DNA of 64,000 nt from Micrococcales bacterium (GTDB lineage: Bacteria > Actinomycetota > Actinomycetes > Actinomycetales > Microbacteriaceae), in the NCBI GenBank assembly GCA_046063415.1, contig JBJTMG010000088.1, positions 2,608 through 66,607 on the forward strand, given 5' to 3'. The position numbers were made by a program, and so were the translations under genes. Under the pieces are notes generated by a model. That model was not told the origin of the DNA. It did not search any database and was given only the letters and a program-made list of their open reading frames with translations. Shown piece after piece: positions 31,665 through 57,880 of this stretch (positions within the stretch are counted from its first letter, which is position 1; each line of letters starts with the position of its first letter).

Positions 31665-31710
31665 AAGGATTCCAAGGTTACCAACTCCGGGACTCCCGAA
31701 AACCTAACTA

Positions 31711-33366: not shown

Positions 33367-33413
33367 TAGTTCTTACCGCCCTGTGACTTCATTGATTCTG
33401 CGAGGATTGAAAT

Positions 33414-34010
33414 ATGTTTGAACGTCAAATCTTTAGGCCCTTGAGTAATCTGGCTCTTGCCGGCACGGTTTTCCTGCTTGCCGCCTTGTACCCCATAGAG
33501 CCTCTGATTCGCCAGAACTGGCTTGGCTTTGCCGCAGCCACAGCCGTCTCCGCAACCGCAGTCGCTCTTTCCTGGATCGCTTTCGTCAGACCTAAGCTCA
33601 TAATTGATGACGTCAAGATCACTATCGTGAACCCGTTCCGGACCGTAGTAATCCCCTACGGAAAAATCGAAATTATCGATTCCAAATACTCTCTGGTAAT
33701 AACCACCGAAAACGGCAAATTCAGCTGCTGGGTTGCTCCAGCCCCTAGTCGGTACGGGGGAAGAGGCGTCATCAAAGCCGACATTCGAAACCTGCCCATT
33801 ACCTCCGGCCAAGACTCTCAGATTCGCGCCAGCGACTCCCCCAAATCGCACTCGGGGCAGGCTGCTGTTCTTGTGAGAATGGCGGTTGAAACTTTCAATC
33901 GCGCCGCCGTCAACAGCGATGACAAAGTTACTCAGCACTTCAACGTGGTTGGCGCAACCCTGACCCTGGCTCTGCTGCTGAGTGCCGTAGCACTGCAACT
34001 GGTTCATTAG
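33414..34010 (+). CDS. Membrane protein with a PH-like (bacterial pleckstrin-homology-type) domain, encoded antisense within the ABC cluster
   Basis: GAGGA sits 7 nt before the ATG. It is 198 aa with two N-terminal TM helices, then RPKLIIDDVKITIVNPFRTVVIPYGKIEIIDSKYSLVITTENGKFSCWVAP (membrane-anchored bacterial PH-like pattern) and a C-terminal TM. C-ending two-fold codons match the rest of the window. Confidence 0.65.
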   Translation: MFERQIFRPLSNLALAGTVFLLAALYPIEPLIRQNWLGFAAATAVSATAVALSWIAFVRPKLIIDDVKITIVNPFRTVVIPYGKIEIIDSKYSLVITTENGKFSCWVAPAPSRYGGRGVIKADIRNLPITSGQDSQIRASDSPKSHSGQAAVLVRMAVETFNRAAVNSDDKVTQHFNVVGATLTLALLLSAVALQLVH

Positions 34011-35086
34011 CTGGCAACCTTCTTGAGCTGGGTGGCTCGCTCACGATCTCTGCGGGTAATGCGACGGCGCTGACGAGGGTCGAATGCGTCGCGCAGACCG
34101 TCACCAATGAAGTTGATGCAGAGCGCAATGGTGATGATGATGAGGCCTGGCCACCAGAACAACCAAGGACGAGTGGTGAACGAGTCCTGATACTGGCTGA
34201 TTAGGCTTCCGAGCGATACATCGGGGCTCACCACACCAAATCCAAGGTAGCTAAGTGCGGTCTCAAGAAGGATCGCACCTGACATAAGCAGCGTCACCGA
34301 AACGATGATTACGCCCACGGCGTTGGGCAGAATGTGCTTAAAAATGATTCGGGTGTTTGAGGCTCCCGCGACACGCGCTGCATCCACAAACTCGCGCTCA
34401 CGCAGGCTCAGGAACTCACCACGGACCAATCGAGCAAGACCGGTCCAAGCAAACACACCAAGGAACACACCAAGGAAGAACACACCAAGGTTTCCAATTC
34501 GGTAACCGATCACGGCACCAATAATGAGGGTTGGAATGGTAATGATGAGGTCGGTGATGCGCATCAGGACGGCATCTACCCAGCCGCGGAAGAATCCGGC
34601 GATTGCTCCAATGACGGTTCCCATGAACGCCGCAATGATACCGATGACGAACATGATCATGATTGACTGCTCTGCTCCGCGCATTGCTAGCGCAAAGTAG
34701 TCACGACCAATGTCGTCCTGACCAAATGGGTGATCGCCAATGGCAACTCCAGTGCCATCGATGAATGAAGGCAGCAGATCAAGGCTGGGGCAGCCAACGA
34801 TGTTCTCGGGGCAGGTCTCATAGACCAGCTCAGGTAGGTCGGTGATTGAGTAGTGCCACCAACCAGGGATAACAATCGGGTCCTTCTCACTGCCGAATCG
34901 AAGACCCGAGGCAGTGAATACGAACAGGATTAGAGTCACGAGAACAACAACCGAAACCATTGCGGCGCGGTGTCGAACGAATCTTCTCAGAACAATTTGC
35001 GATTGGCTCAGGCCGGCGGTTTCGCGCTGTTCAATGGCATTTTCGCCGGCTTCAACAGTCGCGGCTTCTTGATTCTTCTTAGCCAT
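34007..35086 (-). CDS. ABC peptide-type permease (OppC/DppC-like)
   Basis: 359 aa with 6 TM segments and the EAA-like loop FVDAARVAGASNTRIIFKHILPN. Confidence 0.9.
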   Translation of the reverse strand: MAKKNQEAATVEAGENAIEQRETAGLSQSQIVLRRFVRHRAAMVSVVVLVTLILFVFTASGLRFGSEKDPIVIPGWWHYSITDLPELVYETCPENIVGCPSLDLLPSFIDGTGVAIGDHPFGQDDIGRDYFALAMRGAEQSIMIMFVIGIIAAFMGTVIGAIAGFFRGWVDAVLMRITDLIITIPTLIIGAVIGYRIGNLGVFFLGVFLGVFAWTGLARLVRGEFLSLREREFVDAARVAGASNTRIIFKHILPNAVGVIIVSVTLLMSGAILLETALSYLGFGVVSPDVSLGSLISQYQDSFTTRPWLFWWPGLIIITIALCINFIGDGLRDAFDPRQRRRITRRDRERATQLKKVAS

Positions 35087-35091
35087 GGTTT

Positions 35092-36630
35092 TTACTTTCC
35101 AACTCGAATACGAGGATCAAGGGCCGAATAGATGAGGTCAGCGGCAAGGTTTGCCAACAAAGCCATCGATGCGGTGACAAAAAACACACCCATAAGCAGG
35201 TTCAGGTCCTGCCCTCCGATTGCCTGGTTGAACAGGGTGCCCATGCCGACCCAGCCGAAAACCTTTTCGGTGATGATGGCTCCACCAATGATTCCTGCGA
35301 AGTCGAAGGCCATGATGGTGGTAAGCGGGATCAGCGCGTTTCTAAATGCGTGACGCATAATCACGGTGCGTTCGGTAAGTCCCTTGGCACGAGCGGTCCG
35401 GATGTAATCCTGGTTCAGAACCTCAAGAAGGCTTCCGCGCGAGTATCGAACGTAGCCAGCGAAGGAAATGATCATTAGAGCCATGGTTGGCAGGAACAGG
35501 TGAAGCATGGAGTCCAAGGTCAGGAACCAGAAGTCCTCGGTGACCAACAAGGTGTTGACCTGACCGATGGTTGGAACCGGACGGAAGTTAATCGCATCTG
35601 TACTGGAGTACGAATACCAAGTCCGCATGATCTTGTCCACCAGGATTATGCCGGCCACCAGTACACCTGTTATGACCGTGGTGCGAACTGTGGCGCTTCT
35701 GTCAATCTTGGTTGAGAACCAGCCGATTGCCCAAGAGACGACGATTGTCGCAGCCGCAAGTAGAAGCAACTGAACAAAATCAAAACTTGGGTTCAGAACC
35801 GACTGAATTGGGAAGTAGATGATGAAACCCAGGACAGCTACTGCAAGGGATGCGTAGAGCGCCCTTCGGTTTGAGATACCCATTGAAATTTGTGTTACTC
35901 CAACGGCCACTCCAATTCCCAGAACCAATACCATTCCTGGCCCAAGCGCAGGTTTCGTGAACCAGTCCAGGGTGTCAAGCAACCACAGCGCCAGTGCTGA
36001 GCTAGCAAACGCAGTGAAGAAGATGATCCATACTTTTCGCCGCTCACCACCGATGATTCCGGCCCAGAAGATTCCGCTTGCTAGTGAGAGCCAGAATAGC
36101 CAAGGCATTGTCACAGTGGGATCGGCAAGGAAGTTGTTGAAACCAATTGCGAGGTACTGCTTTAGGAGTACGGCTACCCAGAAGATAGGTAGCGAGAAGA
36201 ACAGGAACGAAACAAAAGTCATTGAGTAGTCAAAGCGACTGTACTGACGAAGTGCGGTGATGATACCAATGGTGATTCCAAGCACGATTGCCAAAATGGT
36301 GGCGCCGAGGACCAACCGAATGGTGGTTGGTATGGCAGCTGTGATTGCCTCCCCCACCGGTTCACCAGTGCGGGTCTTGCCAAGGTCAAAGTCACCGACA
36401 AAAATTCCAAGAACGCCCTTGAGCCAGTTGAAGAAACGAATTGGAGGCGGCACGTCTAGTTGAAGGTCGCGCGTTAGCACAAGCATTTGTTGCTTGGCAT
36501 TGGGCGCCTTGCTAATGCGAAGCTCTTCAAGAGGGTCACCGGCAAGTGCCTCGAGGTTGTAAATAAGGAAGCTGGATCCAAGCAGGATCACCAATAGAAC
36601 CGAAATACGGCGAGTTATGAAGCCGAACAA
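35092..36630 (-). CDS. ABC peptide-type permease (OppB/DppB-like) with a ~180-aa multi-TM insertion
   Basis: 512 aa, where about 310-330 would be usual. The EAA loop YIRTARAKGLTERTVIMRHAFRNALIP is present. About six extra hydrophobic helices lie between residues ~165 and ~345. Confidence 0.85.
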   Translation of the reverse strand: MFGFITRRISVLLVILLGSSFLIYNLEALAGDPLEELRISKAPNAKQQMLVLTRDLQLDVPPPIRFFNWLKGVLGIFVGDFDLGKTRTGEPVGEAITAAIPTTIRLVLGATILAIVLGITIGIITALRQYSRFDYSMTFVSFLFFSLPIFWVAVLLKQYLAIGFNNFLADPTVTMPWLFWLSLASGIFWAGIIGGERRKVWIIFFTAFASSALALWLLDTLDWFTKPALGPGMVLVLGIGVAVGVTQISMGISNRRALYASLAVAVLGFIIYFPIQSVLNPSFDFVQLLLLAAATIVVSWAIGWFSTKIDRSATVRTTVITGVLVAGIILVDKIMRTWYSYSSTDAINFRPVPTIGQVNTLLVTEDFWFLTLDSMLHLFLPTMALMIISFAGYVRYSRGSLLEVLNQDYIRTARAKGLTERTVIMRHAFRNALIPLTTIMAFDFAGIIGGAIITEKVFGWVGMGTLFNQAIGGQDLNLLMGVFFVTASMALLANLAADLIYSALDPRIRVGK

Positions 36631-36703
36631 ATCAAGCCACTTCCTTTTTAGACGTCATTGGCAACTTAGAAAAGTTTATGTTGATAAAACTGCCGCCAGC
36701 AAA

Positions 36704-36742
36704 CTTGTGGCAGCCGGTTCAAATATCCCCGGCTGCCACAAG
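36704..36742 (-). terminator. Strong stem-loop just downstream of the substrate-binding-protein gene; possibly a partial terminator or mRNA stabiliser
   Basis: A perfect 14-bp stem CTTGTGGCAGCCGG / CCGGCTGCCACAAG with an 11-nt loop. Only a weak U-tract (TTTG) follows on the minus strand. Confidence 0.55.
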
Positions 36743-36773
36743 TGACTAGCTGTGTAGTCCTAGTCTTTTCAGA

Positions 36774-38636
36774 CTAGAAGTGCCACTCCCAGTAGTTCCA
36801 AACCAGGTTTGGAGTTAGTGGGGCTGGCTTGATTCCCTTTAGACCAGTGGTGTACGAGGTCACCGCTGGGTGCTGGAAGATACCTAGGCTGACAGCGTCC
36901 TCAACGAGGATCTTTTCAGCTGCAAGGTACTTTGCAGTGATCTGCTTAGGAGTCAACTTCTTCTCTAGACCACGAAGAACCTTGTCAAGGTCAGCGTTTG
37001 CGTAACCTAGGAAGTTGTTCTCACCATCGCTAAGGAAGTTAGGGTTGGTCGAGGTCTGGCTGGTGTTAGTTGGGCACCAAGCGAAGAAGGCTGCGTCGTA
37101 GTTGTTAGCAGTTAGGTAACCGCCCCAACCTGACTTACCAGGTGCGCTCACGTCGAAACCAGCAAGCTTCTCCTCAGCAATCACAAGAGCAGCCTCTGCG
37201 CCACGACGAGCGTTGCTTGGCTGACCCCATAGAAGGTTGATCTTGATTGGCTGGTTCTTAGCGCCGGCTTCTGGGTAGTACTTCTGAACTAGAGCAAGCG
37301 CCTTAGCGGTGCGCTCTGCCTGGGTACCATCGCTGAACTTCTTAACACCGCTGCCCTTGACGACATCGTTGTAACCAGTCTGACCTGGAAGCAGGAAGAC
37401 CGAGTTAACAACAACAGCGCTGCTGTTGATTGGACGAACGATGGTGTCAATGATGCGCTGACGAGGGTAAGCAAGTAGGAACGCGGTACGCAGGTCCTTT
37501 GCCTTCTGGCTGTTTCCGAGGAATGGACCGGTGTACTTGTCGGTCTCGCCCTGGCCGTCGCCTACGCGAAGGTCAATGTGCTCGAAACATGCGTTGGTTC
37601 CACCAATGGTGGTAACACCGCTGATGCCCTTAAGCTGTGCAACGGCGTCAGCGGTTGGCTGACCCTGGTACACATCGATTTCACGGTTAGCAAGTGCCTG
37701 CGAAGCAGCGGTACCGTCAGCAATGAACTTGAAGACTAGAGTCTTGATGCCCGAGAGCTTCTTGCCCGAGTTGTACTTAGGGTTCGCTACAAGAGTCGCG
37801 CTCTGGTCTGCAACTGCACTCTTCATGATGTAGCCACCGTTGGTGACTAGTAGAAGTGGGTTGGTGCTGCTGTTTACAGTCTTGATGTTGTAGTCGTTGC
37901 TCCAGACCTTACCCATGGCCTTTAGAGCCGAGGTCTTCTTGCCCTTGAAGTCTGCAAGGAACTTAGCCTTGGCAGCCTTGTTAGCAGAAGCCGACTGAAG
38001 GCCATCCTTGCCCGCAGCCATTAGCTCAAGAGCGTGAACTGGTGCAGGACCAGGGCCCATGATCTCCCAGTCTGGCTGGAAAGAGTCGTAGCGAATGGTT
38101 ACCGACATCTGGTCAGCGCTAAGGGTTGGCTCGCCGACAACGTGGTTGTCGTATGGGCCACCGTAGCCACCAGAGTTGAATGCTGGGGTTGCATCGGTGT
38201 TAGCTGGGTCGCCCAAGCCAGCAGCCTTGCTGTACTTACTGCTCGAGAGCACGTGGCTTAGAAGAAGGTCAACACCGGTGATAGGGGTTCCGTCTGACCA
38301 GACCTTGCCCTTGTTCACGGTGTACTGAACACGGAAGTCCTTGGCGGTGTCCTTAACAACTTTGTAGGAACCGAAAACGGTGTTCTTGACAAGGTTCTTC
38401 TTGTCGTCGTAGTAGTTGAAGCCGGCACCCGAAACGTACGCGATGTCTGCGTTAACGGTGAGGTTGGTGTCGGGGGTGCTTGGGTTGAGCGAGGTCATGG
38501 CGTTTGATTCCACGATGACCACGGTCGTACGTGCTGCAGCGTCTGCCGCGTTGACCGAAAGCAGGGAAACTCCTGCAATGGTCAAGGTGCTGGCAGCAAC
38601 AGCCGCAACCGCGCGAACGGTGCGTGATGCTTTCAT
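36774..38636 (-). CDS. ABC transporter substrate-binding protein (peptide/nickel family-5-like), not a lipoprotein
   Basis: ATG at 38636 follows AAGGAGAG. It is 620 aa with the signal peptide MKASRTVRAVAAVAASTLTIAGVSLLSVNAADA and no lipobox Cys. It is the first gene of the cluster. Confidence 0.8.
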   Translation of the reverse strand: MKASRTVRAVAAVAASTLTIAGVSLLSVNAADAAARTTVVIVESNAMTSLNPSTPDTNLTVNADIAYVSGAGFNYYDDKKNLVKNTVFGSYKVVKDTAKDFRVQYTVNKGKVWSDGTPITGVDLLLSHVLSSSKYSKAAGLGDPANTDATPAFNSGGYGGPYDNHVVGEPTLSADQMSVTIRYDSFQPDWEIMGPGPAPVHALELMAAGKDGLQSASANKAAKAKFLADFKGKKTSALKAMGKVWSNDYNIKTVNSSTNPLLLVTNGGYIMKSAVADQSATLVANPKYNSGKKLSGIKTLVFKFIADGTAASQALANREIDVYQGQPTADAVAQLKGISGVTTIGGTNACFEHIDLRVGDGQGETDKYTGPFLGNSQKAKDLRTAFLLAYPRQRIIDTIVRPINSSAVVVNSVFLLPGQTGYNDVVKGSGVKKFSDGTQAERTAKALALVQKYYPEAGAKNQPIKINLLWGQPSNARRGAEAALVIAEEKLAGFDVSAPGKSGWGGYLTANNYDAAFFAWCPTNTSQTSTNPNFLSDGENNFLGYANADLDKVLRGLEKKLTPKQITAKYLAAEKILVEDAVSLGIFQHPAVTSYTTGLKGIKPAPLTPNLVWNYWEWHF

Positions 38637-38833
38637 ATTTCTCTCCTTGTTGGGGTCCAGCATTCTCGCGGATTCCACAGCGGAGAGACCCCTGTGAGTT
38701 CCGGCAACAATGCCTTGGGTGACTCCACACTATAAAGAAAATGTCCGCAAAGTGAACTTTTGCAGAAATTAATACGGTTCTTTACATGTTCTTTACATTT
38801 CAGCTCGAAAGACCGCAATGTTAGGCTCGGGGC

Positions 38834-39234: not shown

Positions 39235-39882
39235 ATGAATATGGGTGATCTTTTCGCCATTGGAATTTTCGCGGGCCTAGCCCTCGCGATTCCGGTTGGA
39301 CCAATGGCTCTGCTCCTGATTCAAACCACTATTCAGCGCGGGCTGAGCGCGGGAATTGCGGGAGGCCTCGGAATGGCCACAGTAGATTTTCTCTACGCTA
39401 TCGCAGCGTTCACAATGGGAGGACTAGTTACTACCTTCCTTGGATCATCGGGTGGCTTCTTATCTTGGGTTGGAGGTCTCATACTCGCGGGGTTTGGTGC
39501 ACGAACTGCGGTTTCCAGCTGGAGAACCAGAAATAGCAACGTCGACTCAGTGGTCACCCAAAAAATCACCGCTAGCAGGAACTTTTTCAGGTTCGTCGCG
39601 GCAACTTTGGTCAATCCGCCGACTGCACTTTACTTTGTTGCCCTCGCAGCCACCTTTGCCCAAAAATTCTCAAGGACCGAGCTATGCGTCTTGGAATTCT
39701 CATCTCTCGCCCTGACATTTGGCTTGGGTGTCTTTCTGGGATCGGGTCTTTGGCAAGAATCTCTGGCTGTGGGGGCCCACACGCTGAAAAAGTGGCTAAG
39801 CGTGAAAGCACAAAAATGGATCGGCGTTTCGAGCGGCGTCCTGATAGTTGCCCTGGCAGTGAAGATGGTGGTTGCGCCTTGA
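39235..39882 (+). CDS. LysE/RhtB-family amino-acid exporter
   Basis: 215 aa with about 6 TM segments and the N-terminal pattern GLALAIPVGPMALLLIQTTIQRG typical of LysE-type translocators. Confidence 0.75.
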   Translation: MNMGDLFAIGIFAGLALAIPVGPMALLLIQTTIQRGLSAGIAGGLGMATVDFLYAIAAFTMGGLVTTFLGSSGGFLSWVGGLILAGFGARTAVSSWRTRNSNVDSVVTQKITASRNFFRFVAATLVNPPTALYFVALAATFAQKFSRTELCVLEFSSLALTFGLGVFLGSGLWQESLAVGAHTLKKWLSVKAQKWIGVSSGVLIVALAVKMVVAP

Positions 39883-40640
39883 CAGAGCAAAGTAAAAAGC
39901 ATCTGGTTCAAGAAGTCTTTCTTGTTCTGGGAGTAAGCCTTGGAGTATCCGCTGTCTATTCCGTAGTTAGCGTCATTGTCAAGCTTCTCTCCCCAGCGGG
40001 ACTCGCTGGCAGCAAAACCACCATCAATGGCTCTCTTAGCGAAAATCCATGGCTTGACTTGACCTACCAGCTGCTTGGTATTTTCTTCGATTTGGTTCCA
40101 GCACTGCTTGCCCTTTACCTACTGAGACAGACTTTTCTTCTGCTGCACCAAGACACCGATGGCTGGTTGCAGAGACTCTTTGGCGCCATAAACGCACGCG
40201 CGGCCCTTCGGGGCATAGCGCTAGCCGCAGCCATCGGGGTTCCCGGAATTGGGCTGTATCTGCTTGCCAGAGAACTGGGCTGGGCAGCCAAGGTAATTCC
40301 GGCTGACCTTGGCTCCTATTGGTGGACTGTGCCGGTGCTGCTGCTATCGGCAGCAAAGTCCTCGTTTATTGAAGAAGTGATTGTCGTCGGCTACCTGTTG
40401 GATCGGCTTAAGAGATTGGGGCTAGATACACGATGGCAGATGGGGATTTCTGCGGTATTCCGAGGTAGTTACCACCTTTACCAGGGTTTCGGTGGCTTTA
40501 TAGGCAATGCGATTATGGGCATTGTTTTTGGTTTGGCCTACAAACGTTGGGGCAAACTGATGCCGCTGTTGATTGCGCATTTCATCATGGACGCGGTTGT
40601 CTTTATTGGTTACACATTTGTTGCACGGCTAATTCCGTAA
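39879..40640 (+). CDS. CPBP-family (CAAX/Abi) intramembrane metalloprotease
   Basis: TTG at 39879 overlaps the LysE TGA (TTGA). It is 253 aa with the motifs SFIEEVIVVGY (EExxx), FRGSYH and IAHFIMD (HxxxD). Confidence 0.75.
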   Translation: MTEQSKKHLVQEVFLVLGVSLGVSAVYSVVSVIVKLLSPAGLAGSKTTINGSLSENPWLDLTYQLLGIFFDLVPALLALYLLRQTFLLLHQDTDGWLQRLFGAINARAALRGIALAAAIGVPGIGLYLLARELGWAAKVIPADLGSYWWTVPVLLLSAAKSSFIEEVIVVGYLLDRLKRLGLDTRWQMGISAVFRGSYHLYQGFGGFIGNAIMGIVFGLAYKRWGKLMPLLIAHFIMDAVVFIGYTFVARLIP

Positions 40641-40685
40641 CCAGACCAGTTCCCTGCTAATCTGACAAAGCATTCGCACAGAATG

Positions 40686-40868
40686 TAGCTTTTGCCTCTG
40701 TTGGGGGAAGCTGGTGAAAATCCGGCGCTGACCCGCAACCGTAAATCAGAGACTCGTAAAGAGCGCTGACAAGTCGGAATGCCTAACAGGAGCGATTGAC
40801 TCCAAAAAAATACCGTCGAGGTCTACGGGTGGAGTCGGATAAATCTTTATCCGAATTCCTGATTTTTT
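40686..40868 (+). promoter_or_regulatory. Cobalamin (B12) riboswitch with a terminator-type expression platform
   Basis: The core GGTGAAAATCCGGCGCTGACCCGCAACCGTAA, a B12-box-like AAGTCGGAATGCC and the closing helix CTGTT...AACAG are present. They are followed by the hairpin GGAGTCGGATAA-atct-TTATCCGAATTCC and TTTTTT at 40863-40868. Confidence 0.85.
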
Positions 40869-40938
40869 AGTAAATCGGGTTTTGGGTTTCGAGAAACCGC
40901 CTTCGCACTCAGATCGCAAAACTGCGAAAGGTTTCGAA

Positions 40939-41922
40939 ATGTTCGAGACAAAAAAATCTGGGTTGCGCACTATCGCAACATTCACAATAGCCGTCATGCT
41001 TTTCGCTGGCGCTGGGCAAAGCGCTCATGCCAAGGAGAGCGCGAACCAAACGACTGTTAAGTTTCTGCAATCAAAGTTTGTAGCAGGAAAATACATCGAG
41101 GGTTTCACTCCTGGCAAAGCTGACTATGGCTTCACTCTTGAAGCCTTGCTGCAAAGAAAGGCTTTAGGCGAAAAATCTTCTGCCTTGGCCAAAGCTGTTC
41201 GCTTCAACCTCGTGAACACTTCGGTGGTGGGCGTATCCCCGTCAGTTCCCGGCTACCTTTTTGATTCCGAAGGGAAGCTGAATGTTGGACTTGCCGGAAA
41301 GTTTGCCTTTGTTAGCCAGGCCATGAAGGCACCGAACGGTAAGCTTCGCAGCAAGATTTTGCAAAAAATCAAAGCCAGCTTTGGCTCAAATGGCGACCTC
41401 AAGGATGCCTCAGCAACTACTTTCGACCGCTCCTGGGTAATTCTTGGGCTCGCCGCAAACGGGAACCCAAAGCAGGCCCAGAGGCTTGGGCTGGCTCTTC
41501 AACAAACTCAACTTTCTGACGGTGGCTTCAACGATGGCTACACGCTTGATGCCAGCGCAACCGACGGTACGGGTATTGCCTTGCAGGCCTTGGCCGCAAC
41601 CAGAAACCTTGGATCGACCGAGGTCAAAAGCAAGACAGGGACGAGTATCGCTAAGGCAGTTCAGTATCTGAGAGGCACCCAGGTAAATGGTGATCACTGG
41701 GAAGCCTGGGGTGACTACAACACCAACGGAACCGCCTACGCTGCCATGGGAATCATCGCAGCCGGAAGCCCGAGTCTTGGAATAGCCACTTGGCTCAAGA
41801 ACAAGCTTTCAAGCGATGGCGGGCTGGTCACTCCTTGGTCCGGTGGTTCCGGAGATACTTACGCCACGGCTCAATCAGTGGTTCCCATGTTGAATCTCAG
41901 TTACCTAAGCCTGCTCAGCTGA
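40939..41922 (+). CDS. Secreted protein with alpha/alpha-toroid (prenyltransferase/terpene-cyclase-like) repeats; candidate B12-binding alpha domain
   Basis: ATG at 40939 follows GAAAGG. It is 327 aa with the signal peptide ..AGAGQSAHA|KE and the repeated motifs QLSDGGF, LSSDGGL, TGIALQAL, TAYAAMGI and YATAQSV. It is the first gene after the B12 riboswitch. Confidence 0.6.
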   Translation: MFETKKSGLRTIATFTIAVMLFAGAGQSAHAKESANQTTVKFLQSKFVAGKYIEGFTPGKADYGFTLEALLQRKALGEKSSALAKAVRFNLVNTSVVGVSPSVPGYLFDSEGKLNVGLAGKFAFVSQAMKAPNGKLRSKILQKIKASFGSNGDLKDASATTFDRSWVILGLAANGNPKQAQRLGLALQQTQLSDGGFNDGYTLDASATDGTGIALQALAATRNLGSTEVKSKTGTSIAKAVQYLRGTQVNGDHWEAWGDYNTNGTAYAAMGIIAAGSPSLGIATWLKNKLSSDGGLVTPWSGGSGDTYATAQSVVPMLNLSYLSLLS

Positions 41923-41926
41923 CCTT

Positions 41927-42490
41927 ATGAACCGAAAGTTTTTGCGCTGGACTCTGGTTGGCATGGTCGCTCTGGTTACCCTGGGGGCTGTGGCCCCCGG
42001 GGTCATGGCCAATCTGGGCCTCGAGATCAGTTTGGTTAGCCCAACATCCTTGGCTGGCGCAAAAACCTCTGCGGGTTGGTGTCGAGACCGTGGTGTTTCA
42101 GTTGTAGTTGATTTTGGACAGCAATCGGGAAAACCAATACAGGTGAGCTGCGTTGTGGGTCCAAAACTAACCGGTTGGGACCTTCTAACTGCCGCCGAGC
42201 TGGGGCCTGTTGGAACAGCGCAATACCCCACCGGGTTCGTCTGTCGTCTGGCGAATTTTCCACCCGCTAACACGCAAGATTGCTCCGACACTCCAACGTA
42301 TTCAGAGGGAACCTGGGCCTACTACTTTGCCACCGCCGAAGCGGGCAACCACTGGATGTTCAGCGGAGCCGGTTCGCAGCAGCGCAGCCCCGACTGCGGA
42401 ACCGTGGAGGGTTGGGTTTTCGAGTTGAATCACACCGATGGTTTGGCAGACGGGCCAAGAATAAAACCTGAGGCCTTCCGGTGCCGCTAG
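41927..42490 (+). CDS. Secreted Cys-rich protein, DUF4430-like (transcobalamin beta-domain-like)
   Basis: 187 aa with the signal peptide ..APGVMA|NLG and six Cys. The pattern VSVVVDFG..TGWDLL..GFVCRL..GTWAYY..WMFSGAG..VEGWVF is as I recall for DUF4430. It starts 4 nt after the previous gene. Confidence 0.55.
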   Translation: MNRKFLRWTLVGMVALVTLGAVAPGVMANLGLEISLVSPTSLAGAKTSAGWCRDRGVSVVVDFGQQSGKPIQVSCVVGPKLTGWDLLTAAELGPVGTAQYPTGFVCRLANFPPANTQDCSDTPTYSEGTWAYYFATAEAGNHWMFSGAGSQQRSPDCGTVEGWVFELNHTDGLADGPRIKPEAFRCR

Positions 42491-43467
42491 GAACGAGGCA
42501 TGTACAAGAGCGACTGGCTGCCACAACCTGGTGGCTCTTGGGACTGAGTTTTGCCCTGTCGGCGAGCCTTTCCAACCAGATACCAATCTTGGTTTTGCTG
42601 TGTGCCGCCATGCTGGTGACCTGTTGGTCTTTTGCAAAACCCGAACAACGCACCAAGGCATTTCCGCTTTACTTGGGCCTGGCGGTATTCGTTGTTATGG
42701 TGCGGTTGGTTTTCAGGGTTATTTTCAACCAACCGGCCACGACCGACGTAGCCCTGAATCTTCCCCGCATTGCAATCCGGGTGCTCGACACCTCAGTTTC
42801 ATTCCTGGGACCGGTTTCAATGCAGTCACTTGAGGCAGCAGCCATCGATGGTCTCCGGCTCGCCGGCATAGTCCTGGGCATTGGCCTGGCAAACACTCTT
42901 GCGAACCCTCGCAGATTGCTGAAGTCAACTCCCCCGGCGCTGTACGAACTTGCTGCAGCTGCGGCAGTCGCGATAAATCTGGCACCGGAGTTAATCCAAA
43001 GCCTGCAACGTGTCAGGCTGGCACGCAGGCTGCGTGGTCAAGAGCTCAGATGGTGGCAACTTAGTTACCTAGTGATTCCGGTCCTAGAAGACTCAATTGA
43101 GCGCTCCCTGAAACTTGCTGCAGGCATGGATTCTCGTGGCTTCGGCCGCGCGCCCGCAACCTCGAGAAGCGCAAAACTTTCCTTTCAACTCTTGACCATT
43201 ACGTCTCTGTGTGCCTTTTCTACGGTCAGTTATCTTGCACTCGCGGGTCAGCAGCAGACGTGGGTTTTGGCATTTATCGCTGTGTTTGGGATTGGTACCT
43301 TGGCATCATCTATAGCCATCGCAGGTAAGTCGCGAATTCGCACAAGGTATCCCGGGGAGCAGAGGACCTGGCGAGATCTAGCCGTGGCCCTGCTTGCAAT
43401 TTCCATGGTTGCTTGGTTCATAAGCGGAGCGCCGAATTCATTGGAGTTGATGCAGTGGAAGCCGTAA
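42481..43467 (+). CDS. ECF transporter T component (EcfT/CbiQ family)
   Basis: 328 aa and multi-TM, with the two conserved Arg motifs LARRLRG and MDSRGFG. Its GTG start overlaps the previous gene's stop. Confidence 0.8.
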   Translation: MPLGTRHVQERLAATTWWLLGLSFALSASLSNQIPILVLLCAAMLVTCWSFAKPEQRTKAFPLYLGLAVFVVMVRLVFRVIFNQPATTDVALNLPRIAIRVLDTSVSFLGPVSMQSLEAAAIDGLRLAGIVLGIGLANTLANPRRLLKSTPPALYELAAAAAVAINLAPELIQSLQRVRLARRLRGQELRWWQLSYLVIPVLEDSIERSLKLAAGMDSRGFGRAPATSRSAKLSFQLLTITSLCAFSTVSYLALAGQQQTWVLAFIAVFGIGTLASSIAIAGKSRIRTRYPGEQRTWRDLAVALLAISMVAWFISGAPNSLELMQWKP

Positions 43468-45056
43468 TTGAACTGAGAGACCTCACGTTCAGCTTTGAGG
43501 CAGCCGATACTCCAATTTTGCGTCGTGTGAACCTCAGGTTTGAAGCAGGAGAGTTTGCATTAATTTGCGGCCCGACTGGATCTGGTAAGTCCACTCTTTT
43601 GGCAGCGATAAACGGATTGATACCGCATTTCAGCTCCGGGCAGATTTCTGGTCAGGTGATCATAAATGGAACTGATATGTCCGGAAAGAAACCCCGCGAG
43701 TTTGCAGAGCAGGTCGGTTATGTGAACCAAGGGCCTGAGGTTGCGTTTGTAGCACACACGGTGGCCGAGGAGCTGGCGTTTGGTATGGAGCAACTTGGTT
43801 TTGCTCCCGAATCCATGATTCGCAAGGTAGCGGAAGTCGCAAGGCAGTTTTCTCTTTCGGACTTTTTGGAAAAGCCGCTCCACGAGTTATCTGGAGGCCA
43901 ACAACAGCGAGTGGCGATGGCAGCGTCGCTTGCCGCAGGCCAGAGAATATTGCTGCTGGATGAACCGACATCATCGTTGGATCCCGATGCGGCGGCGGAA
44001 CTTCTAGCGCTGCTTCGCACGCTAGCGACCGAACAGGGAATCACCATACTCCTCGTTGAGCATCGCATTGAGCGGGTTCTTGAAATCACCGATTCGGTGA
44101 CTGTCGTTAGCGGCGATGGCAGTGCGCTAAAGGCATACAAGCGGCAAGGGCTAGATCCAGTGCTTCGCAGTTACCGAATGGTTCCACCCCTTCTTGAACT
44201 TGGCCAGACCCTCGGCTGGTCACCATTGCCACTGTCAATAAATGAAGCAAAAAAGCGGTGGCAAGAAAACCCAGGGCTGATTCATGCTCTCGAACTCGCG
44301 AAACCTGAACACACTGCGCTTTCAGTCGAGAATCTTGAGGTCTGCTACGGGGCTCGGAGCATTTTAGAAAACTTGAGCTTAGAGATCCGATCAGGAGAAA
44401 TCACTTGTCTCTTGGGTTCAAACGGATCAGGGAAGACCACATTACTGTTGGCAATTCAAGGGGCACTCATTAGCTCCGGAAAGGTCACACTTCTGCCCGA
44501 GCAAGTGGCACCCCAAGAACTCAAACCTTCCGAGCTGATAAAGCATTTAGCGATGGTGCCGCAAGCCGCCTCTGACTTATTGGTCTTGACCTCGGTTTCT
44601 AAAGAACTTGAGGCATCGGATTTGCAGTCGTCCTTAGCCCCAGGAACTACCGGAAACCTGTTCGCGAAGCTTGCAGGAAGAATAAACCCAAATCGACACC
44701 CCCGAGACCTTTCAGCCGGGCAACAGCTTGCTCTGGTTTTGGCTATTCAGCTGAGCAAGGGTGCAAAAATACTCTTGCTTGACGAGCCAACTAGGGGGTT
44801 GGATTATCAATCCAAACGCGTACTTGCCGGCCAGTTGGCTTTGCTAAAAGCAGGAGGTTCTGCTGTTTTTGTTGCCTCGAATGATGTTGAATTTGTTGCT
44901 CTAGTAGCTGACCGTGTCCTGAATATTGCCCACGGGCAAATCCTTCAGGAAGACTCAGCCCCCAGTGTCTTGTCAGAGCTAGGACGGCACGCACCCCAGC
45001 TGTATCAAATCACCCAGCAGGCCATTCGTCTTGAACAAATCGAGGCCAAGCAGTGA
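43455..45056 (+). CDS. Fused ECF ATPase (EcfA-EcfA')
   Basis: Two Walker A motifs (GPTGSGKST, GSNGSGKTT), the signatures LSGGQQQRVAM and LSAGQQLALVL, and Walker B LLLDEPT twice. The start is uncertain: GTG 43455 or the track start 43413. Confidence 0.9.
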   Translation: MEAVIELRDLTFSFEAADTPILRRVNLRFEAGEFALICGPTGSGKSTLLAAINGLIPHFSSGQISGQVIINGTDMSGKKPREFAEQVGYVNQGPEVAFVAHTVAEELAFGMEQLGFAPESMIRKVAEVARQFSLSDFLEKPLHELSGGQQQRVAMAASLAAGQRILLLDEPTSSLDPDAAAELLALLRTLATEQGITILLVEHRIERVLEITDSVTVVSGDGSALKAYKRQGLDPVLRSYRMVPPLLELGQTLGWSPLPLSINEAKKRWQENPGLIHALELAKPEHTALSVENLEVCYGARSILENLSLEIRSGEITCLLGSNGSGKTTLLLAIQGALISSGKVTLLPEQVAPQELKPSELIKHLAMVPQAASDLLVLTSVSKELEASDLQSSLAPGTTGNLFAKLAGRINPNRHPRDLSAGQQLALVLAIQLSKGAKILLLDEPTRGLDYQSKRVLAGQLALLKAGGSAVFVASNDVEFVALVADRVLNIAHGQILQEDSAPSVLSELGRHAPQLYQITQQAIRLEQIEAKQ

Positions 45057-45820
45057 AAACAACGCTTGCCGCCCGTCTGGTTATCGGCGCAGTCACCGCG
45101 CTGTCAGTTTTCAGCTTTCTGTGGCCTTTTTTCATTTCAGCCGAGGGGTCAAGCCAGGCAGCTACTGCACAAACGCTTTTCATGCTGCTAATGCCATCTT
45201 TTATTGCAACAGTGCTCACGCAGTATTCAAGCGGAAACATCGACTCAAGGCAGCTAGCCATGCTTGGTGTTCTGATCGCCCTCAACTCAGTAGTTAGATT
45301 GCTGGGCGCCGGCACGGCTGGAATCGAAACCGCATTCTTCCTGATAATCATTGGCGGTTTTGTTTTTGGGTCTGGATTTGGGTTCCTACTTGGCTCGGGA
45401 TCACTTCTGATTAGTGCGGTGCTCAGTGGTGGCGTGGGCCCTTGGCTTCCATTCCAAATGATGGCTGCCGGTTTAGTTGGGCTTGGCGCGGGAGCCCTGC
45501 CATCGCTGCAAAGAATTCGACTGCAGGTTTGGGTCCTGGTTCCCTACGCCATAGTGGCTAGTTACGCTTACGGGGCATTGATGACAGCGTGGAATTGGCC
45601 GTTTCTTGCGGGGCTTGGCACAACTATTGGGTACGCCCCAGGCCAAGGCCCACTTGTGAATCTAGGACGGTTCCTAACCTACGAAATTGTCACTGGAGGC
45701 TTGCTCTGGGACACCGGAAGAGCCGTGACGACAGCCACTTTGATCGCCTTAACCGGTCCGACCCTGCTGACTACCCTGAAGAGGGCAGCCCGCAGGGCCG
45801 GTTTAGAAACTAAGTTCTAA
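45053..45820 (+). CDS. ECF S-component-like integral membrane protein; candidate cobalamin-specific component
   Basis: 255 aa with about 6-7 TM segments, Gly-rich helices and a GTGA overlap with the ATPase gene. It is the last gene of the riboswitch operon. Confidence 0.6.
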   Translation: MKTTLAARLVIGAVTALSVFSFLWPFFISAEGSSQAATAQTLFMLLMPSFIATVLTQYSSGNIDSRQLAMLGVLIALNSVVRLLGAGTAGIETAFFLIIIGGFVFGSGFGFLLGSGSLLISAVLSGGVGPWLPFQMMAAGLVGLGAGALPSLQRIRLQVWVLVPYAIVASYAYGALMTAWNWPFLAGLGTTIGYAPGQGPLVNLGRFLTYEIVTGGLLWDTGRAVTTATLIALTGPTLLTTLKRAARRAGLETKF

Positions 45821-48347: not shown

Positions 48348-48380
48348 GACCCCCGAAGCTACGGAGGTCTTGTTTTGGTT

Positions 48381-48752
48381 GTGGAGATGGGGGGAATTGA
48401 ACCCCCGTCCAGAGCTTAGAAGCTGGGTCTTCTACGTGCGTAGTTTTACTAATGTTCTACTCGGCCCCGGTCATAGCGTAAAACGACCTAACCGACGGGC
48501 CCAGCCTGAGTAAAAGTCCCAAGTAGCCCTAAGGCGTAACTACTGAGCAAGATTTCTAAATGACGCCAGGGTCTGCCACGAAATCAAAGACAGTCTGACG
48601 GACTTCGGGCTAGTTGCGCTTAGGCAGCTAGGGCAAAGTCAGTGCGATTAGCATCAGCACTTATTTTTTGCAGCGGACATTTACGAGTTGACGCTACATT
48701 CTCGGCACGCTTCATCCAGCATCAATAAACACTGTCGAAACCGATCATCCCC
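48381..48752 (-). ncRNA. ssrA: tmRNA (SsrA)
   Basis: On the minus strand the 5' end reads GGGGATGATCGGTTTCGACAG and the 3' end reads GGACGGGGGTTCAATTCCCCCCATCTCCA. The internal tag frame GCT GAT GCT AAT CGC ACT GAC TTT GCC CTA GCT GCC TAA (48658-48620) encodes ADANRTDFALAA*. It lies next to smpB. Confidence 0.95.
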
Positions 48753-57796: not shown

Positions 57797-57880
57797 GCGG
57801 GAGTGGTGGAATGGCAGACACGCTGGATTTAGGTTCCAGTGCCGAGAGGCGTGAGGGTTCAAGTCCCTTCTCCCGTACCA
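57797..57880 (+). tRNA. tRNA-Leu (anticodon TAG), CCA encoded
   Basis: The acceptor is GCGGGAG/CTCCCGT (G-U at position 1-72). The anticodon stem CTGGA/TCCAG has the loop TTTAGGT. There is a long variable arm, the T-arm GGGTTCAAGTCCC and a 3' ACCA. Confidence 0.9.

What the first reader, a model, noticed from the sequence alone, without database searches (positions are those of the whole stretch)
40686..45820. B12-riboswitch operon: two secreted proteins that look like a split transcobalamin, coupled to a dedicated ECF importer
Seen in the sequence:
- A cobalamin-riboswitch core (GGTGAAAATCCGGCGCTGACCCGCAACCGTAA), a B12-box-like AAGTCGGAATGCC and the closing helix CTGTT/AACAG are present.
- These are followed by a bulged ~12-bp hairpin and T6, which would act as an OFF-type terminator.
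- Five genes follow, with a 4-nt gap or overlapping start/stop codons.
- Gene 1 is 327 aa with a Sec signal peptide. It carries repeated helical-hairpin motifs (QLSDGGF, LSSDGGL, TGIALQAL, TAYAAMGI) typical of alpha/alpha-toroid folds.
- Gene 2 is 187 aa with a signal peptide and 6 Cys. Its spacing (TGWDLL..GFVCRL..GTWAYY..WMFSGAG..VEGWVF) is what I associate with DUF4430.
- Genes 3-5 are EcfT (ARRLRG and DSRGFG motifs), a fused EcfA-A' and a 255-aa S-like membrane protein.

Established knowledge: eukaryotic transcobalamin and intrinsic factor sandwich B12 between an alpha6/alpha6 barrel and a small beta domain. DUF4430 is described as related to that beta domain, and ECF-type cobalamin importers exist.

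Inference: the two secreted proteins may form a two-polypeptide extracellular B12 capture module that feeds the ECF S component. Neither protein has a lipobox, an LPXTG motif or a TM anchor, so how they would be retained at a Gram-positive surface is unexplained.
Basis: partly seen in the sequence, partly recalled or inferred. Interest (0 to 1): 0.75.

Follow-up and report, generated by a model that had tools for sequence, protein, structure and literature searches.

The report
B12 uptake operon with transcobalamin-like binders
A vitamin-B12-sensing RNA switch in a freshwater actinobacterium controls five genes: a membrane importer plus two exported proteins whose predicted shapes match the two halves of the animal B12 carrier transcobalamin. 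This arrangement has already been predicted, and once described, in other Gram-positive bacteria, but nobody has tested whether it binds B12.

Summary
A cobalamin riboswitch (RF00174, 36.0 bits, cut-off 31.5) lies at 40682-40804. It is followed by a possible terminator and five tightly packed genes.

- **Gene 1:** a signal-peptide protein modelled as a 12-helix alpha/alpha toroid (pLDDT 91).
- **Gene 2:** a six-cysteine protein. Its model (pLDDT 83) best matches PDB 3u7z and then the beta domains of transcobalamin and intrinsic factor.
- **Genes 3-5:** EcfT, a fused double ATPase and an S component.

Gene 2 is not DUF4430 by sequence: 0 of 38 family members match, while the human transcobalamin control does. 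It belongs to the actinobacterial SCO2322 family.

- **Conservation:** riboswitch and gene order are conserved in Rhodoluna-like genomes and in Verrucosispora.
- **Fusions:** elsewhere the two domains are fused in one protein, in either order.
- **Exception:** five related loci lack gene 1.
- **Retention:** gene 2 probably keeps an N-terminal membrane anchor, which would explain how it stays at the cell surface.

The concept is published: Burroughs 2007, the Lactobacillus sakei lsa1836-1840 operon, and acI genomes. I therefore class this as a new member of a known but biochemically untested kind. The most likely function is B12-repressed, high-affinity corrinoid capture that hands the vitamin to a dedicated ECF importer.

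The parts
40682..40804 (+). Cobalamin riboswitch aptamer (RF00174, clan CL00101)
   Evidence: cmscan gives 36.0 bits against a gathering score of 31.5, E=1.7e-5, covering the full model 1-189. A B12-clan riboswitch sits at the same position in all 16 related loci tested.
40831..40868 (+). Putative intrinsic terminator of the expression platform: a 12-bp stem with a one-base bulge, then TGA and T6. An alternative helix (40796-40804 with 40830-40838) competes with it.
   Evidence: strand folding gives -13.8 kcal/mol (z=-2.4) for the hairpin and -15.3 kcal/mol (z=-3.0) for the competing helix. It was not picked up as such by the consensus scan. Its function is inferred.
40939..41922 (+). Gene 1: exported 327-aa alpha6/alpha6 toroid protein, the candidate counterpart of the transcobalamin alpha domain
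   Evidence: - Conserved start and AXA signal-peptide site.
- The family profile hits squalene-hopene cyclase at E=2.5e-6.
- AF2 pLDDT is 91.4, with 12 main helices.
- Foldseek matches include terpene cyclases, intrinsic factor (rank 5), transcobalamin (ranks 8-9) and haptocorrin (rank 17).
- There is no DxDD motif (read).
41927..42490 (+). Gene 2: 187-aa six-cysteine extracytoplasmic beta-grasp (SLBB-like) protein of the SCO2322 family, the candidate counterpart of the transcobalamin beta domain. It probably has an N-terminal membrane anchor.
   Evidence: - AF2 pLDDT is 83.3.
- The Foldseek top hit is 3u7z (probability 1.0, target-normalised TM 0.74), followed by transcobalamin and intrinsic-factor beta domains.
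- Relatives carry PF28005 'SCO2322'.
- There is no DUF4430 match.
- The N-terminal hydrophobic core is 21 residues.
42481..43467 (+). Gene 3: EcfT (CbiQ-type transmembrane coupling subunit)
   Evidence: PF02361 scores 27.2 bits against a cut-off of 25. The ARRLRG and DSRGFG motifs are in the translation. It is 38% identical to the Verrucosispora CbiQ gene.
43413..45056 (+). Gene 4: fused EcfA-EcfA' double ATPase (start at TTG 43413 or GTG 43455)
   Evidence: It has two ABC_tran domains, E=3.3e-52. ECF_ATPase_1 and ECF_ATPase_2 are the best NCBIfam hits. The start codons were checked.
45053..45820 (+). Gene 5: 255-aa ECF S component. It is the most conserved protein of the operon.
   Evidence: PF12822 scores 34 bits against a cut-off of 30.7. 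It is 53-63% identical across related loci and 53% identical to Verrucosispora. It has no significant sequence match to any solved structure, ECF-CbrT included.

Best explanation
This is a B12-repressed operon for scavenging cobalamin or related corrinoids.

1. When the cell has enough B12, the leader RNA binds it and the downstream hairpin plus U-run probably stops transcription.
2. When B12 is scarce, five translationally coupled genes are expressed.
3. Gene 2 is a disulfide-rich beta-grasp domain, probably tethered to the membrane by its N-terminal helix. Gene 1 is a secreted alpha6/alpha6 toroid. Together they are proposed to clamp one corrinoid between them outside the cell, as the two domains of transcobalamin do.
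4. They then pass the corrinoid to the S component. The EcfT and EcfA-A' module drives the S component to bring the vitamin in.

Shown here: the riboswitch, the gene content, the predicted folds, the synteny and the domain fusions. Inferred: ligand binding, formation of the complex, hand-over to the S component, the anchoring of gene 2 and the terminator mechanism.
For: - **Riboswitch.** It scores above the gathering threshold. It is conserved upstream of the same operon in 16 of 16 related loci, including the distant genus Verrucosispora, which has two copies.
- **Gene order.** The order is conserved in the related loci that hold enough sequence. All five parts are homologous to the Verrucosispora locus.
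- **Folds.** Gene 2 best matches 3u7z and transcobalamin/intrinsic-factor beta domains. Its strand-strand-helix-hairpin-strand-strand order fits the 'transcobalamin-like SLBB' clade defined in PMC1796856. The most conserved motif, GTAQYPTGFVCR, lies on that hairpin. Gene 1 is a 12-helix toroid, with cobalamin carriers among its top hits.
- **Fusions.** SCO2322-type domains are joined to toroids in single proteins, in both orders (P0175, P0178, P0192, P0226, P0274, P0284). One fusion protein and two gene 1 relatives give sub-threshold Cobalamin_bind hits.
- **Location.** Gene 1 has a signal peptide; gene 2 has six conserved cysteines. Longer relatives carry a C-terminal transmembrane segment with a basic tail (73 of 102) or an LPXTG/LAXTG-like motif (7).
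- **Literature.** The same logic was predicted for Firmicutes (PMC1796856). A five-gene equivalent is described in L. sakei (bioRxiv 10.1101/864751). In acI Actinobacteria, an ECF module behind B12 riboswitches was read as a B12 importer (PMC5301498).
Against: - No binding or transport data exist for any member with B12. The only experimental study, in L. sakei, argues for heme.
- Gene 2 fails the DUF4430 HMM, and profile-sequence comparison with transcobalamin beta is negative. The Foldseek E-values are weak (0.01-0.5).
- The toroid match is generic: terpene cyclases, C3d and glycosidases score similarly.
- Five related loci (L020-L023, L029) have gene 2 and, where the contig extends far enough, the ECF genes, but no adjacent gene 1. 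The toroid is therefore dispensable or encoded elsewhere.
- The S component is unrelated in sequence to the one proven ECF B12 S component, CbrT.
- The terminator has a 3-nt spacer before the U-run and was not called by the consensus scan.
- B12-dependent enzymes were not found among the 10 large ORFs scanned. The rest of the genome is not available.
Confidence: 0.6

Rival explanations
1. The ECF module imports corrinoids, but the two exported proteins do not form a transcobalamin-like sandwich. Gene 2 alone is the surface B12 receptor. The toroid has a separate accessory role, for example widening corrinoid specificity, stripping B12 from other carriers, or attaching to the cell wall.
For: - Five related loci keep gene 2 without an adjacent toroid gene. 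In L022 the riboswitch sits directly in front of gene 2.
- The isolated transcobalamin beta domain has been crystallised bound to cyanocobalamin (PDB 5np4, listed).
- Toroid hits are generic.
Against: - Toroid and SCO2322 domains recur as fusions in both orders.
- The two genes lie 4 nt apart.
- 30 of the 35 loci with enough upstream sequence keep the pair.
- Verrucosispora has two toroid + SCO2322 pairs, each behind its own B12 riboswitch.
Confidence: 0.2
2. The transported substrate is not complete cobalamin. It is another tetrapyrrole or a B12 precursor, such as cobinamide or other incomplete corrinoids, or heme as claimed for the L. sakei homologous operon.
For: - A deletion of L. sakei lsa1836-1840 was reported to affect heme uptake (bioRxiv 10.1101/864751).
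- Burroughs et al. allowed for 'B12 or its precursors' (PMC1796856).
- B12 riboswitches also control precursor-salvage and cobalt transporters (established knowledge).
- The S component is not CbrT-like.
Against: - Control by a B12 riboswitch, conserved across two actinobacterial families, ties the operon to corrinoid status, not iron or heme status.
- No CbiM/CbiN cobalt components are present.
- Heme uptake would not be expected to be repressed by B12.
Confidence: 0.12
3. Gene 1 is an enzyme (a terpene cyclase or prenyltransferase-like protein) and the operon is unrelated to vitamin capture. The riboswitch match would be coincidental, or would regulate only the transporter.
For: The best sequence and structure matches of gene 1 are squalene-hopene cyclase and drimenyl diphosphate synthase.
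Against: - The protein is exported through a signal peptide.
- It is a single toroid of about 296 residues.
- The catalytic DxDD position of cyclases reads ATDGT (alignment; invariant D209/T211/G212).
- All matches are far below family cut-offs, for example 33.6 bits against 851.
- The riboswitch is conserved with the operon.
Confidence: 0.03

Closest known systems
Lactobacillus (Latilactobacillus) sakei lsa1836-1840 operon (Verplaetse et al., bioRxiv 10.1101/864751)
   Same: It is a five-gene unit: ECF S, fused A-A' and T, plus two separate signal-peptide proteins. [quoted passage not shown]
   Different: - It is in a Firmicute.
- The authors argue for heme uptake.
- The passages I read do not mention a riboswitch.
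- Here the beta-like protein belongs to the actinobacterial SCO2322 family, which the DUF4430 HMM does not detect, and a B12 riboswitch controls the operon.
Bacterial 'transcobalamin-like' SLBB proteins with alpha/alpha toroids in CbiO/CbiQ operons (Burroughs, Balaji, Iyer, Aravind 2007, PMC1796856)
   Same: - Secreted or surface beta-grasp domains with a beta-hairpin insert, fused to or encoded next to toroids.
- They sit in operons with ECF-type ATPase and T genes.
- The host organisms lack B12 synthesis.
- They are predicted to scavenge B12.
   Different: - That survey rested mostly on low-GC Gram-positives and archaea.
- The SCO2322 family is cysteine-rich and larger (about 135 aa against about 100).
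- I could link it to that clade only by predicted structure, not by sequence.
Mammalian transcobalamin, intrinsic factor and haptocorrin (PDB 2bb5, 2pmv, 4kki)
   Same: An alpha6/alpha6 barrel plus a small beta domain; one cobalamin is sandwiched between them. Both of the window's models retrieve these structures.
   Different: - The mammalian carriers are one polypeptide; here there are two genes.
- Sequence identity is about 10-15%.
- There is no Pfam Cobalamin_bind or DUF4430 match for the window's proteins.
- Delivery here would go to an ECF S component rather than to an endocytic receptor.
ECF-CbrT of Lactobacillus delbrueckii, the characterised ECF-type B12 importer (Santos et al. 2018; from my own knowledge)
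   Same: An ECF-type importer for cobalamin, with a T subunit, two ATPase domains and a small integral-membrane S component.
   Different: - CbrT works without extracytoplasmic binders.
- The S component here (255 aa, PF12822) shows no detectable sequence similarity to any solved S component beyond a marginal FolT hit.
ECF module behind cobalamin/AdoCbl riboswitches in freshwater acI Actinobacteria (Kang et al. 2017, PMC5301498)
   Same: Streamlined freshwater Actinobacteria that lack B12 synthesis carry a riboswitch-controlled ECF module, which the authors read as a B12 importer.
   Different: That paper does not discuss exported toroid or beta-grasp partners. I did not test whether the acI operons contain them.
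SCO2321 / SCO2322 family proteins of Streptomyces and other Actinomycetota (NCBIfam NF053823, NF040672; Pfam PF28005)
   Same: - The same two domain types lie next to CbiQ, a double ABC ATPase and an ECF S gene, behind B12 riboswitches in Verrucosispora.
- The gene 2 family profile retrieves these proteins at E values down to about 1e-44.
   Different: - Most of those proteins carry C-terminal Pro-rich linkers plus a membrane or sortase anchor; the window's versions are short.
- The window's proteins score below the curated cut-offs: 25.4 bits against 85 for gene 2, and no hit for gene 1.
- I found no published function.
BtuG surface B12-capture lipoprotein feeding BtuB in Bacteroides (from my own knowledge)
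   Same: It is a functional analogue: a very high-affinity extracellular B12 binder encoded with, and handing over to, the membrane transporter, under B12 riboswitch control.
   Different: BtuG has an unrelated fold (beta-propeller), sits in a Gram-negative outer membrane and works with a TonB-dependent transporter.

Membership tests
Cobalamin riboswitch (Rfam RF00174, clan CL00101) | Covariance-model score at or above the curated gathering score | tested here: met
   36.0 bits against 31.5, E=1.7e-5, full-length match at 40682-40804.
Cobalamin riboswitch (Rfam RF00174, clan CL00101) | Conserved position in the 5' leader of B12-related genes in related genomes | tested here: met
   RF00174, RF01482 or RF01689 hits lie upstream of the operon in 16 of 16 related loci.
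Cobalamin riboswitch (Rfam RF00174, clan CL00101) | Ligand-dependent change in gene expression | not testable with these tools
   Only a candidate terminator/antiterminator pair was found.
ECF transporter with a dedicated module (group I) | EcfT/CbiQ subunit with the conserved Arg-containing coupling motifs | tested here: met
   PF02361 scores 27.2 bits against 25. ARRLRG and DSRGFG are in the translation.
ECF transporter with a dedicated module (group I) | Two ABC ATPase domains | tested here: met
   Two ABC_tran stretches, E=3.3e-52. ECF_ATPase_1 and ECF_ATPase_2 are the best NCBIfam hits, though below the equivalog cut-offs because the protein is fused.
ECF transporter with a dedicated module (group I) | Integral-membrane S component encoded in the same operon | tested here: met
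   PF12822 scores 34 bits against 30.7. It shares a GTGA overlap with gene 4.
ECF transporter with a dedicated module (group I) | No extracytoplasmic substrate-binding protein (textbook distinction from classical ABC importers) | tested here: inconclusive
   Two exported candidate binders are co-transcribed. Whether they take part in transport is unknown.
DUF4430 / transcobalamin beta domain (Pfam PF14478) | Match to the Pfam HMM | tested here: not met
   Gene 2 has no hit at E<=0.1. 0 of 38 family members match at E<=1. As a positive control, the human transcobalamin beta domain scores 28.7 bits against 23.8. hhalign against transcobalamin beta gives probability 0.3.
DUF4430 / transcobalamin beta domain (Pfam PF14478) | Beta-grasp (SLBB) fold with a beta-hairpin inserted after the helix | tested here: met
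   - The AF2 model has pLDDT 83, with element order E57-62, E72-77, H83-89, E95-97/E104-108, E129-135, E160-166.
- The Foldseek top hit is 3u7z (target-normalised TM 0.74), followed by transcobalamin and intrinsic-factor beta domains.
- E-values are weak, 0.01-0.5.
DUF4430 / transcobalamin beta domain (Pfam PF14478) | Binds cobalamin together with an alpha/alpha toroid | not testable with these tools
Eukaryotic cobalamin-binding protein alpha domain (Pfam PF01122) | Match to the Pfam HMM | tested here: not met
   Gene 1 has no hit. Only 2 of 34 relatives give sub-threshold hits, best E=0.0016.
Eukaryotic cobalamin-binding protein alpha domain (Pfam PF01122) | Alpha6/alpha6 barrel fold | tested here: met
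   The model has 12 main helices and pLDDT 91. Intrinsic factor, transcobalamin and haptocorrin match at E of 2e-4 to 9e-4, but other toroids score equally well.
SCO2322 family (Pfam PF28005; NCBIfam NF040672) | Score above the curated HMM cut-off | tested here: inconclusive
   - NF040672 scores 25.4 bits against a cut-off of 85.
- PF28005 is not in the local Pfam copy, but it is precomputed on relatives 45-51% identical to gene 2 and named.
- The gene 2 family profile retrieves SCO2322-labelled proteins at E values down to about 1e-44.
SCO2321 family membrane protein (NCBIfam NF053823) | Score above the curated HMM cut-off, and a membrane anchor | tested here: not met
   Gene 1 has no hit at E<=0.1 and no C-terminal anchor. 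It has only weak tblastn similarity to the Verrucosispora toroid (24.5% identity, E=7e-5).
Class II terpene cyclases (squalene-hopene cyclase type) | Catalytic DxDD motif and full-length family HMM score | tested here: not met
   The equivalent position reads ATDGT (alignment). TIGR03463 scores 33.6 bits against 851. The protein has a signal peptide.
CbrT-type ECF B12 S component | Sequence similarity to the characterised CbrT | tested here: not met
   No solved S component matches apart from a marginal FolT hit (E=0.19). The only Pfam hit is the generic PF12822.

The most novel reading that the evidence does not exclude
Actinomycetota carry a two-polypeptide 'bacterial transcobalamin': an SCO2322-type beta-grasp protein plus an alpha6/alpha6 toroid. 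It captures B12 outside the cell and delivers it to an ECF S component. That would be a binding-protein-assisted ECF transporter, contrary to the textbook definition of the class. It would also link a large uncharacterised actinobacterial family (about 2,000 representatives of 50%-identity clusters) to the evolutionary origin of the animal B12 carriers.
Probability: 0.45. Interest if true: 0.65.

Novelty: new member of a known kind. Interest (0 to 1): 0.45.

Why it matters
**For transporter biology.** ECF transporters are defined as working without extracellular binding proteins. If this operon works as proposed, it shows that some of them recruit a high-affinity capture module.

**For ecology.** Streamlined freshwater Actinobacteria depend on picomolar B12 made by other organisms. 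A capture module would explain how they obtain it.

**For annotation.** It would give a function to the widespread SCO2321 and SCO2322 families, which are now labelled 'hypothetical' or wrongly 'FliK'.

**For evolution.** It would add an actinobacterial branch to the bacterial ancestry of transcobalamin.

**Limits.** The idea itself is not new. It was predicted in 2007 and drawn for L. sakei in 2019. The value here is a clean, riboswitch-linked and easily testable example, not a new principle.

Tried and rejected
**Negative sequence searches**
- Single-sequence and profile searches of gene 2 against PDB sequences found nothing meaningful: antibody light chains, a collagen adhesin and designed propellers.
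- A Pfam scan of 38 diverse family members found no DUF4430 match.
- hhalign of the family profile against the human transcobalamin beta domain gave probability 0.3. Only a 13-residue stretch aligned, around the conserved G..P..G segment.
- The link to transcobalamin therefore rests on predicted structure and context only.

**The terpene-cyclase reading of gene 1** was rejected. The protein has a signal peptide, lacks DxDD and is a single toroid.

**Literature**
- Searches for SCO2321-SCO2325 and for B12 + ECF + toroid found nothing relevant.
- Rodionov et al. 2009 on ECF families (PMC2612444) is not held in the library.

**Caps and missing data**
- One look-up for a cultured-genome locus (P0383) failed.
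- A first Rfam call exceeded the size limit.
- A scan of 10 large ORFs of the window found only housekeeping genes, and no B12-dependent enzymes or cob genes. That says little about the whole genome.

Full report
**What is in the sequence**

The window comes from a freshwater Micrococcales metagenome-assembled genome. Its proteins are identical to NCBI entries ACKORF_06090 and ACKORF_06095, and the nearest genomes are Rhodoluna and other Microbacteriaceae assemblies.

cmscan finds a full-length cobalamin riboswitch at 40682-40804 on the + strand. It scores 36.0 bits against a gathering score of 31.5, with E=1.7e-5 for the whole window and all 4227 families.

Downstream, 40831-40859 folds into a 12-bp stem with one bulged base (-13.8 kcal/mol, z=-2.4). 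TGA and T6 follow. A competing helix pairs the 3' tail of the aptamer (40796-40804) with 40830-40838 (-15.3 kcal/mol) and uses the same GGAGUC bases. This is the usual layout of an OFF switch. However, the U-run is 3 nt from the stem, and the generic terminator scan listed a different, weaker hairpin. I therefore treat the terminator as plausible, not shown.

**The five genes**

Junctions were read directly:
- Gene 1 (40939-41922) ends 4 nt before gene 2 (41927-42490).
- Gene 2 overlaps gene 3 (42481-43467) by 10 nt.
- Gene 4 ends at 45056 and shares GTGA with gene 5 (45053-45820).
- The gene 4 start is TTG 43413 or GTG 43455. Codon 43464 is GTA, not a start.

Genes 3-5 pass the Pfam thresholds for CbiQ/EcfT (27.2 against 25), two ABC_tran domains, and the ECF S component (34 against 30.7). 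The ARRLRG and DSRGFG motifs are in gene 3.

The next gene downstream is on the other strand. Together this makes a compact, dedicated ECF operon behind a B12 riboswitch.

**Gene 1**

- It has no Pfam match.
- NCBIfam gives weak oxidosqualene-cyclase repeats.
- A profile of 34 homologues hits squalene-hopene cyclase in the PDB at E=2.5e-6.
- The AlphaFold2 model is confident (pLDDT 91.4) and has twelve main helices, that is, an alpha6/alpha6 toroid.
- Foldseek against the PDB returns drimenyl diphosphate synthase and squalene-hopene cyclase first. Intrinsic factor is at rank 5, transcobalamin at ranks 8-9 and haptocorrin at rank 17, all at E of 1e-4 to 1e-3. C3d and glycoside hydrolases appear at similar scores.

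The fold is thus compatible with the transcobalamin alpha domain but does not single it out.

An enzymatic role is unlikely:
- The start and a canonical AXA signal-peptide site are conserved.
- The cyclase DxDD position reads ATDGT.
- There is only one toroid.

**Gene 2**

By sequence it is not DUF4430:
- There is no hit at E<=0.1.
- 0 of 38 diverse family members match at E<=1.
- The human transcobalamin beta domain scores 28.7 bits against the same library.
- hhalign of the family profile against that domain is negative.

Relatives carry Pfam PF28005, named 'SCO2322'. Gene 2 itself scores 25.4 bits on NCBIfam SCO2322_fam, where the cut-off is 85.

By predicted structure the picture changes:
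- The model (pLDDT 83.3) has the element order strand-strand-helix-hairpin-strand-strand.
- Its best PDB match is 3u7z (probability 1.0, target-normalised TM 0.74, E=0.01). From memory this is a DUF4430 structure; I did not verify that here.
- Next come transcobalamin and intrinsic-factor beta domains: 7qbg, 8ixu, 5no0, 2bb5, 2bb6, 3kq4 and 2pmv.
- After those come generic ubiquitin-like beta-grasp domains.

That topology is the one Burroughs et al. use to define the 'transcobalamin-like' clade of SLBB domains, in which the hairpin contributes most of the B12 contacts (PMC1796856). In the gene 2 family the most conserved motif, GTAQYPTGFVCR, sits on that hairpin. Six cysteines are conserved, which fits an extracytoplasmic, disulfide-bonded domain.

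**Context elsewhere**

tblastn of the five proteins against 40 related genome loci shows the order toroid, SCO2322, T, A-A', S wherever enough sequence is present. Identity ranges across those loci are:

| Protein | Identity to the window's protein |
|---|---|
| S component | 53-63% |
| Fused A-A' ATPase | 41-58% |
| EcfT | 37-53% |
| Gene 1 (toroid) | 34-54% |
| Gene 2 (SCO2322) | 32-51% |

The S component is the most conserved protein and the two exported proteins are the least.

A B12-clan riboswitch lies upstream in all 16 loci scanned.

In Verrucosispora sp. (Micromonosporaceae) the locus has two B12 riboswitches. One precedes a soluble toroid + SCO2322 pair. The other precedes an anchored toroid + SCO2322 pair followed by CbiQ, the double ATPase and the S component. 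All parts are homologous to the window's genes.

An exhaustive profile search finds 2,077 cluster representatives of the gene 2 family at E<=1e-3. Every hit that carries an organism name is from Actinomycetota. Of the 165 family members examined:
- 14 are long proteins in which the domain is fused to toroids, either N- or C-terminal to them (P0175, P0178, P0192, P0226, P0274, P0284). One of these gives a sub-threshold Cobalamin_bind hit.
- 88 are mid-length proteins with a Pro/Ser/Thr-rich linker.
- Of the 102 proteins of 215 residues or more, 73 end in a transmembrane segment with a basic tail and 7 carry an LPXTG/LAXTG-like motif.

The family is therefore normally tethered to the cell.

**Retention at the surface**

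The short Rhodoluna-type gene 2 proteins lack the C-terminal anchor. However, their N-terminal hydrophobic core is long (median 19 residues, 21 in the window) and no AXA site is conserved. Gene 1 has a median core of 16 residues and a clear AXA site. AlphaFold models residues 3-30 of gene 2 as one helix.

I infer that gene 2 is an N-terminally anchored membrane protein next to the transporter, and that gene 1 is held through it. This needs a dedicated topology predictor or an experiment.

**A caveat on the sandwich**

Five related loci (L020, L021, L022, L023, L029) have gene 2 but no gene 1 in the upstream sequence available. Four of them also hold ECF genes downstream; L029 ends just after gene 2. 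In L022 the riboswitch (6823-6889) sits directly before gene 2 (6992). In some lineages the toroid is thus dispensable or encoded elsewhere.

**What is already known**

- Burroughs et al. (2007, PMC1796856) described bacterial transcobalamin-like SLBB proteins, fused to or accompanied by alpha/alpha toroids. These are secreted or wall-anchored, sit in operons with CbiO-like and CbiQ-like genes, and occur in organisms lacking B12 synthesis. The authors proposed B12 scavenging.
- Verplaetse et al. [quoted passage not shown] They drew the same capture-and-hand-over model, but argued for heme.
- Kang et al. (2017, PMC5301498) read an ECF module behind cobalamin riboswitches in acI Actinobacteria as the B12 importer.
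- I found no paper on SCO2321 or SCO2322 function.

**Verdict**

The most likely function is B12-repressed corrinoid scavenging through an ECF importer assisted by a transcobalamin-like extracellular capture module.

My confidence differs by step:
- B12 regulation: about 0.9.
- Corrinoid import: about 0.7.
- The two-protein sandwich: about 0.5.

No member of this kind has been shown to bind B12. The window therefore offers a good test case, not a discovery of principle.

Noticed in passing
window 48379-48752 (-): A full-length tmRNA gene (RF00023, 163.9 bits) lies about 2.5 kb downstream of the operon. The same tmRNA follows the operon in most related loci, so this neighbourhood is syntenic across Rhodoluna-like genomes.
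   Followed up: partly
window 23204-27811 (+): A 1535-aa ORF whose only Pfam signal is a sub-threshold DUF2157 'predicted membrane protein' hit (31 bits against 32.4). It is a very large uncharacterised protein in an otherwise housekeeping region.
   Followed up: no
L005 5647-5733, L011 5644-5728, L018 5654-5741, L022 6641-6729 (all - strand): In several related genomes a glycine riboswitch sits back-to-back with the B12 riboswitch, within roughly 60-100 nt. In L022, the one locus whose ORFs I read, it controls a divergent gcvT-gcvH-gcvP operon. The window instead has a CAAX-protease-like gene (39684-40640) upstream.
   Followed up: partly
L041 5685-14118 (Verrucosispora sp. WMMD573, CP114901.1): Two tandem B12 riboswitches each precede a toroid + SCO2322 gene pair. 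The first pair is soluble; the second carries a sortase-like or membrane anchor and continues into the ECF genes. This suggests paralogous capture modules with different localisation.
   Followed up: partly
L020, L021, L022, L023, L029: A sub-lineage of Rhodoluna-like genomes has the riboswitch, gene 2 and, where the contig extends far enough, the ECF genes, but no toroid gene next to them.
   Followed up: partly
proteins P0299, P0301, P0324, P0340, P0345, P0365: Several SCO2322-family proteins are named 'flagellar hook-length control protein FliK' in public databases. I take this to be an annotation error and suspect low-complexity Pro-rich sequence as the cause. The listed proteins are short (150-174 aa) and I did not inspect their sequences.
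   Followed up: no
window 29907-38678 (-): A peptide-type ABC importer cluster lies just upstream of the B12 operon region. In the scan it has one family-5 solute-binding protein, a fused double ATPase with oligo_HPY domains, and a permease. ORF 36774-38678 looks like a second family-5 binding protein from its translation, but I did not scan it.
   Followed up: no
window 57797-57877 (+): A tRNA gene with a long variable arm (RF00005, 53.4 bits). I did not determine the anticodon.
   Followed up: no
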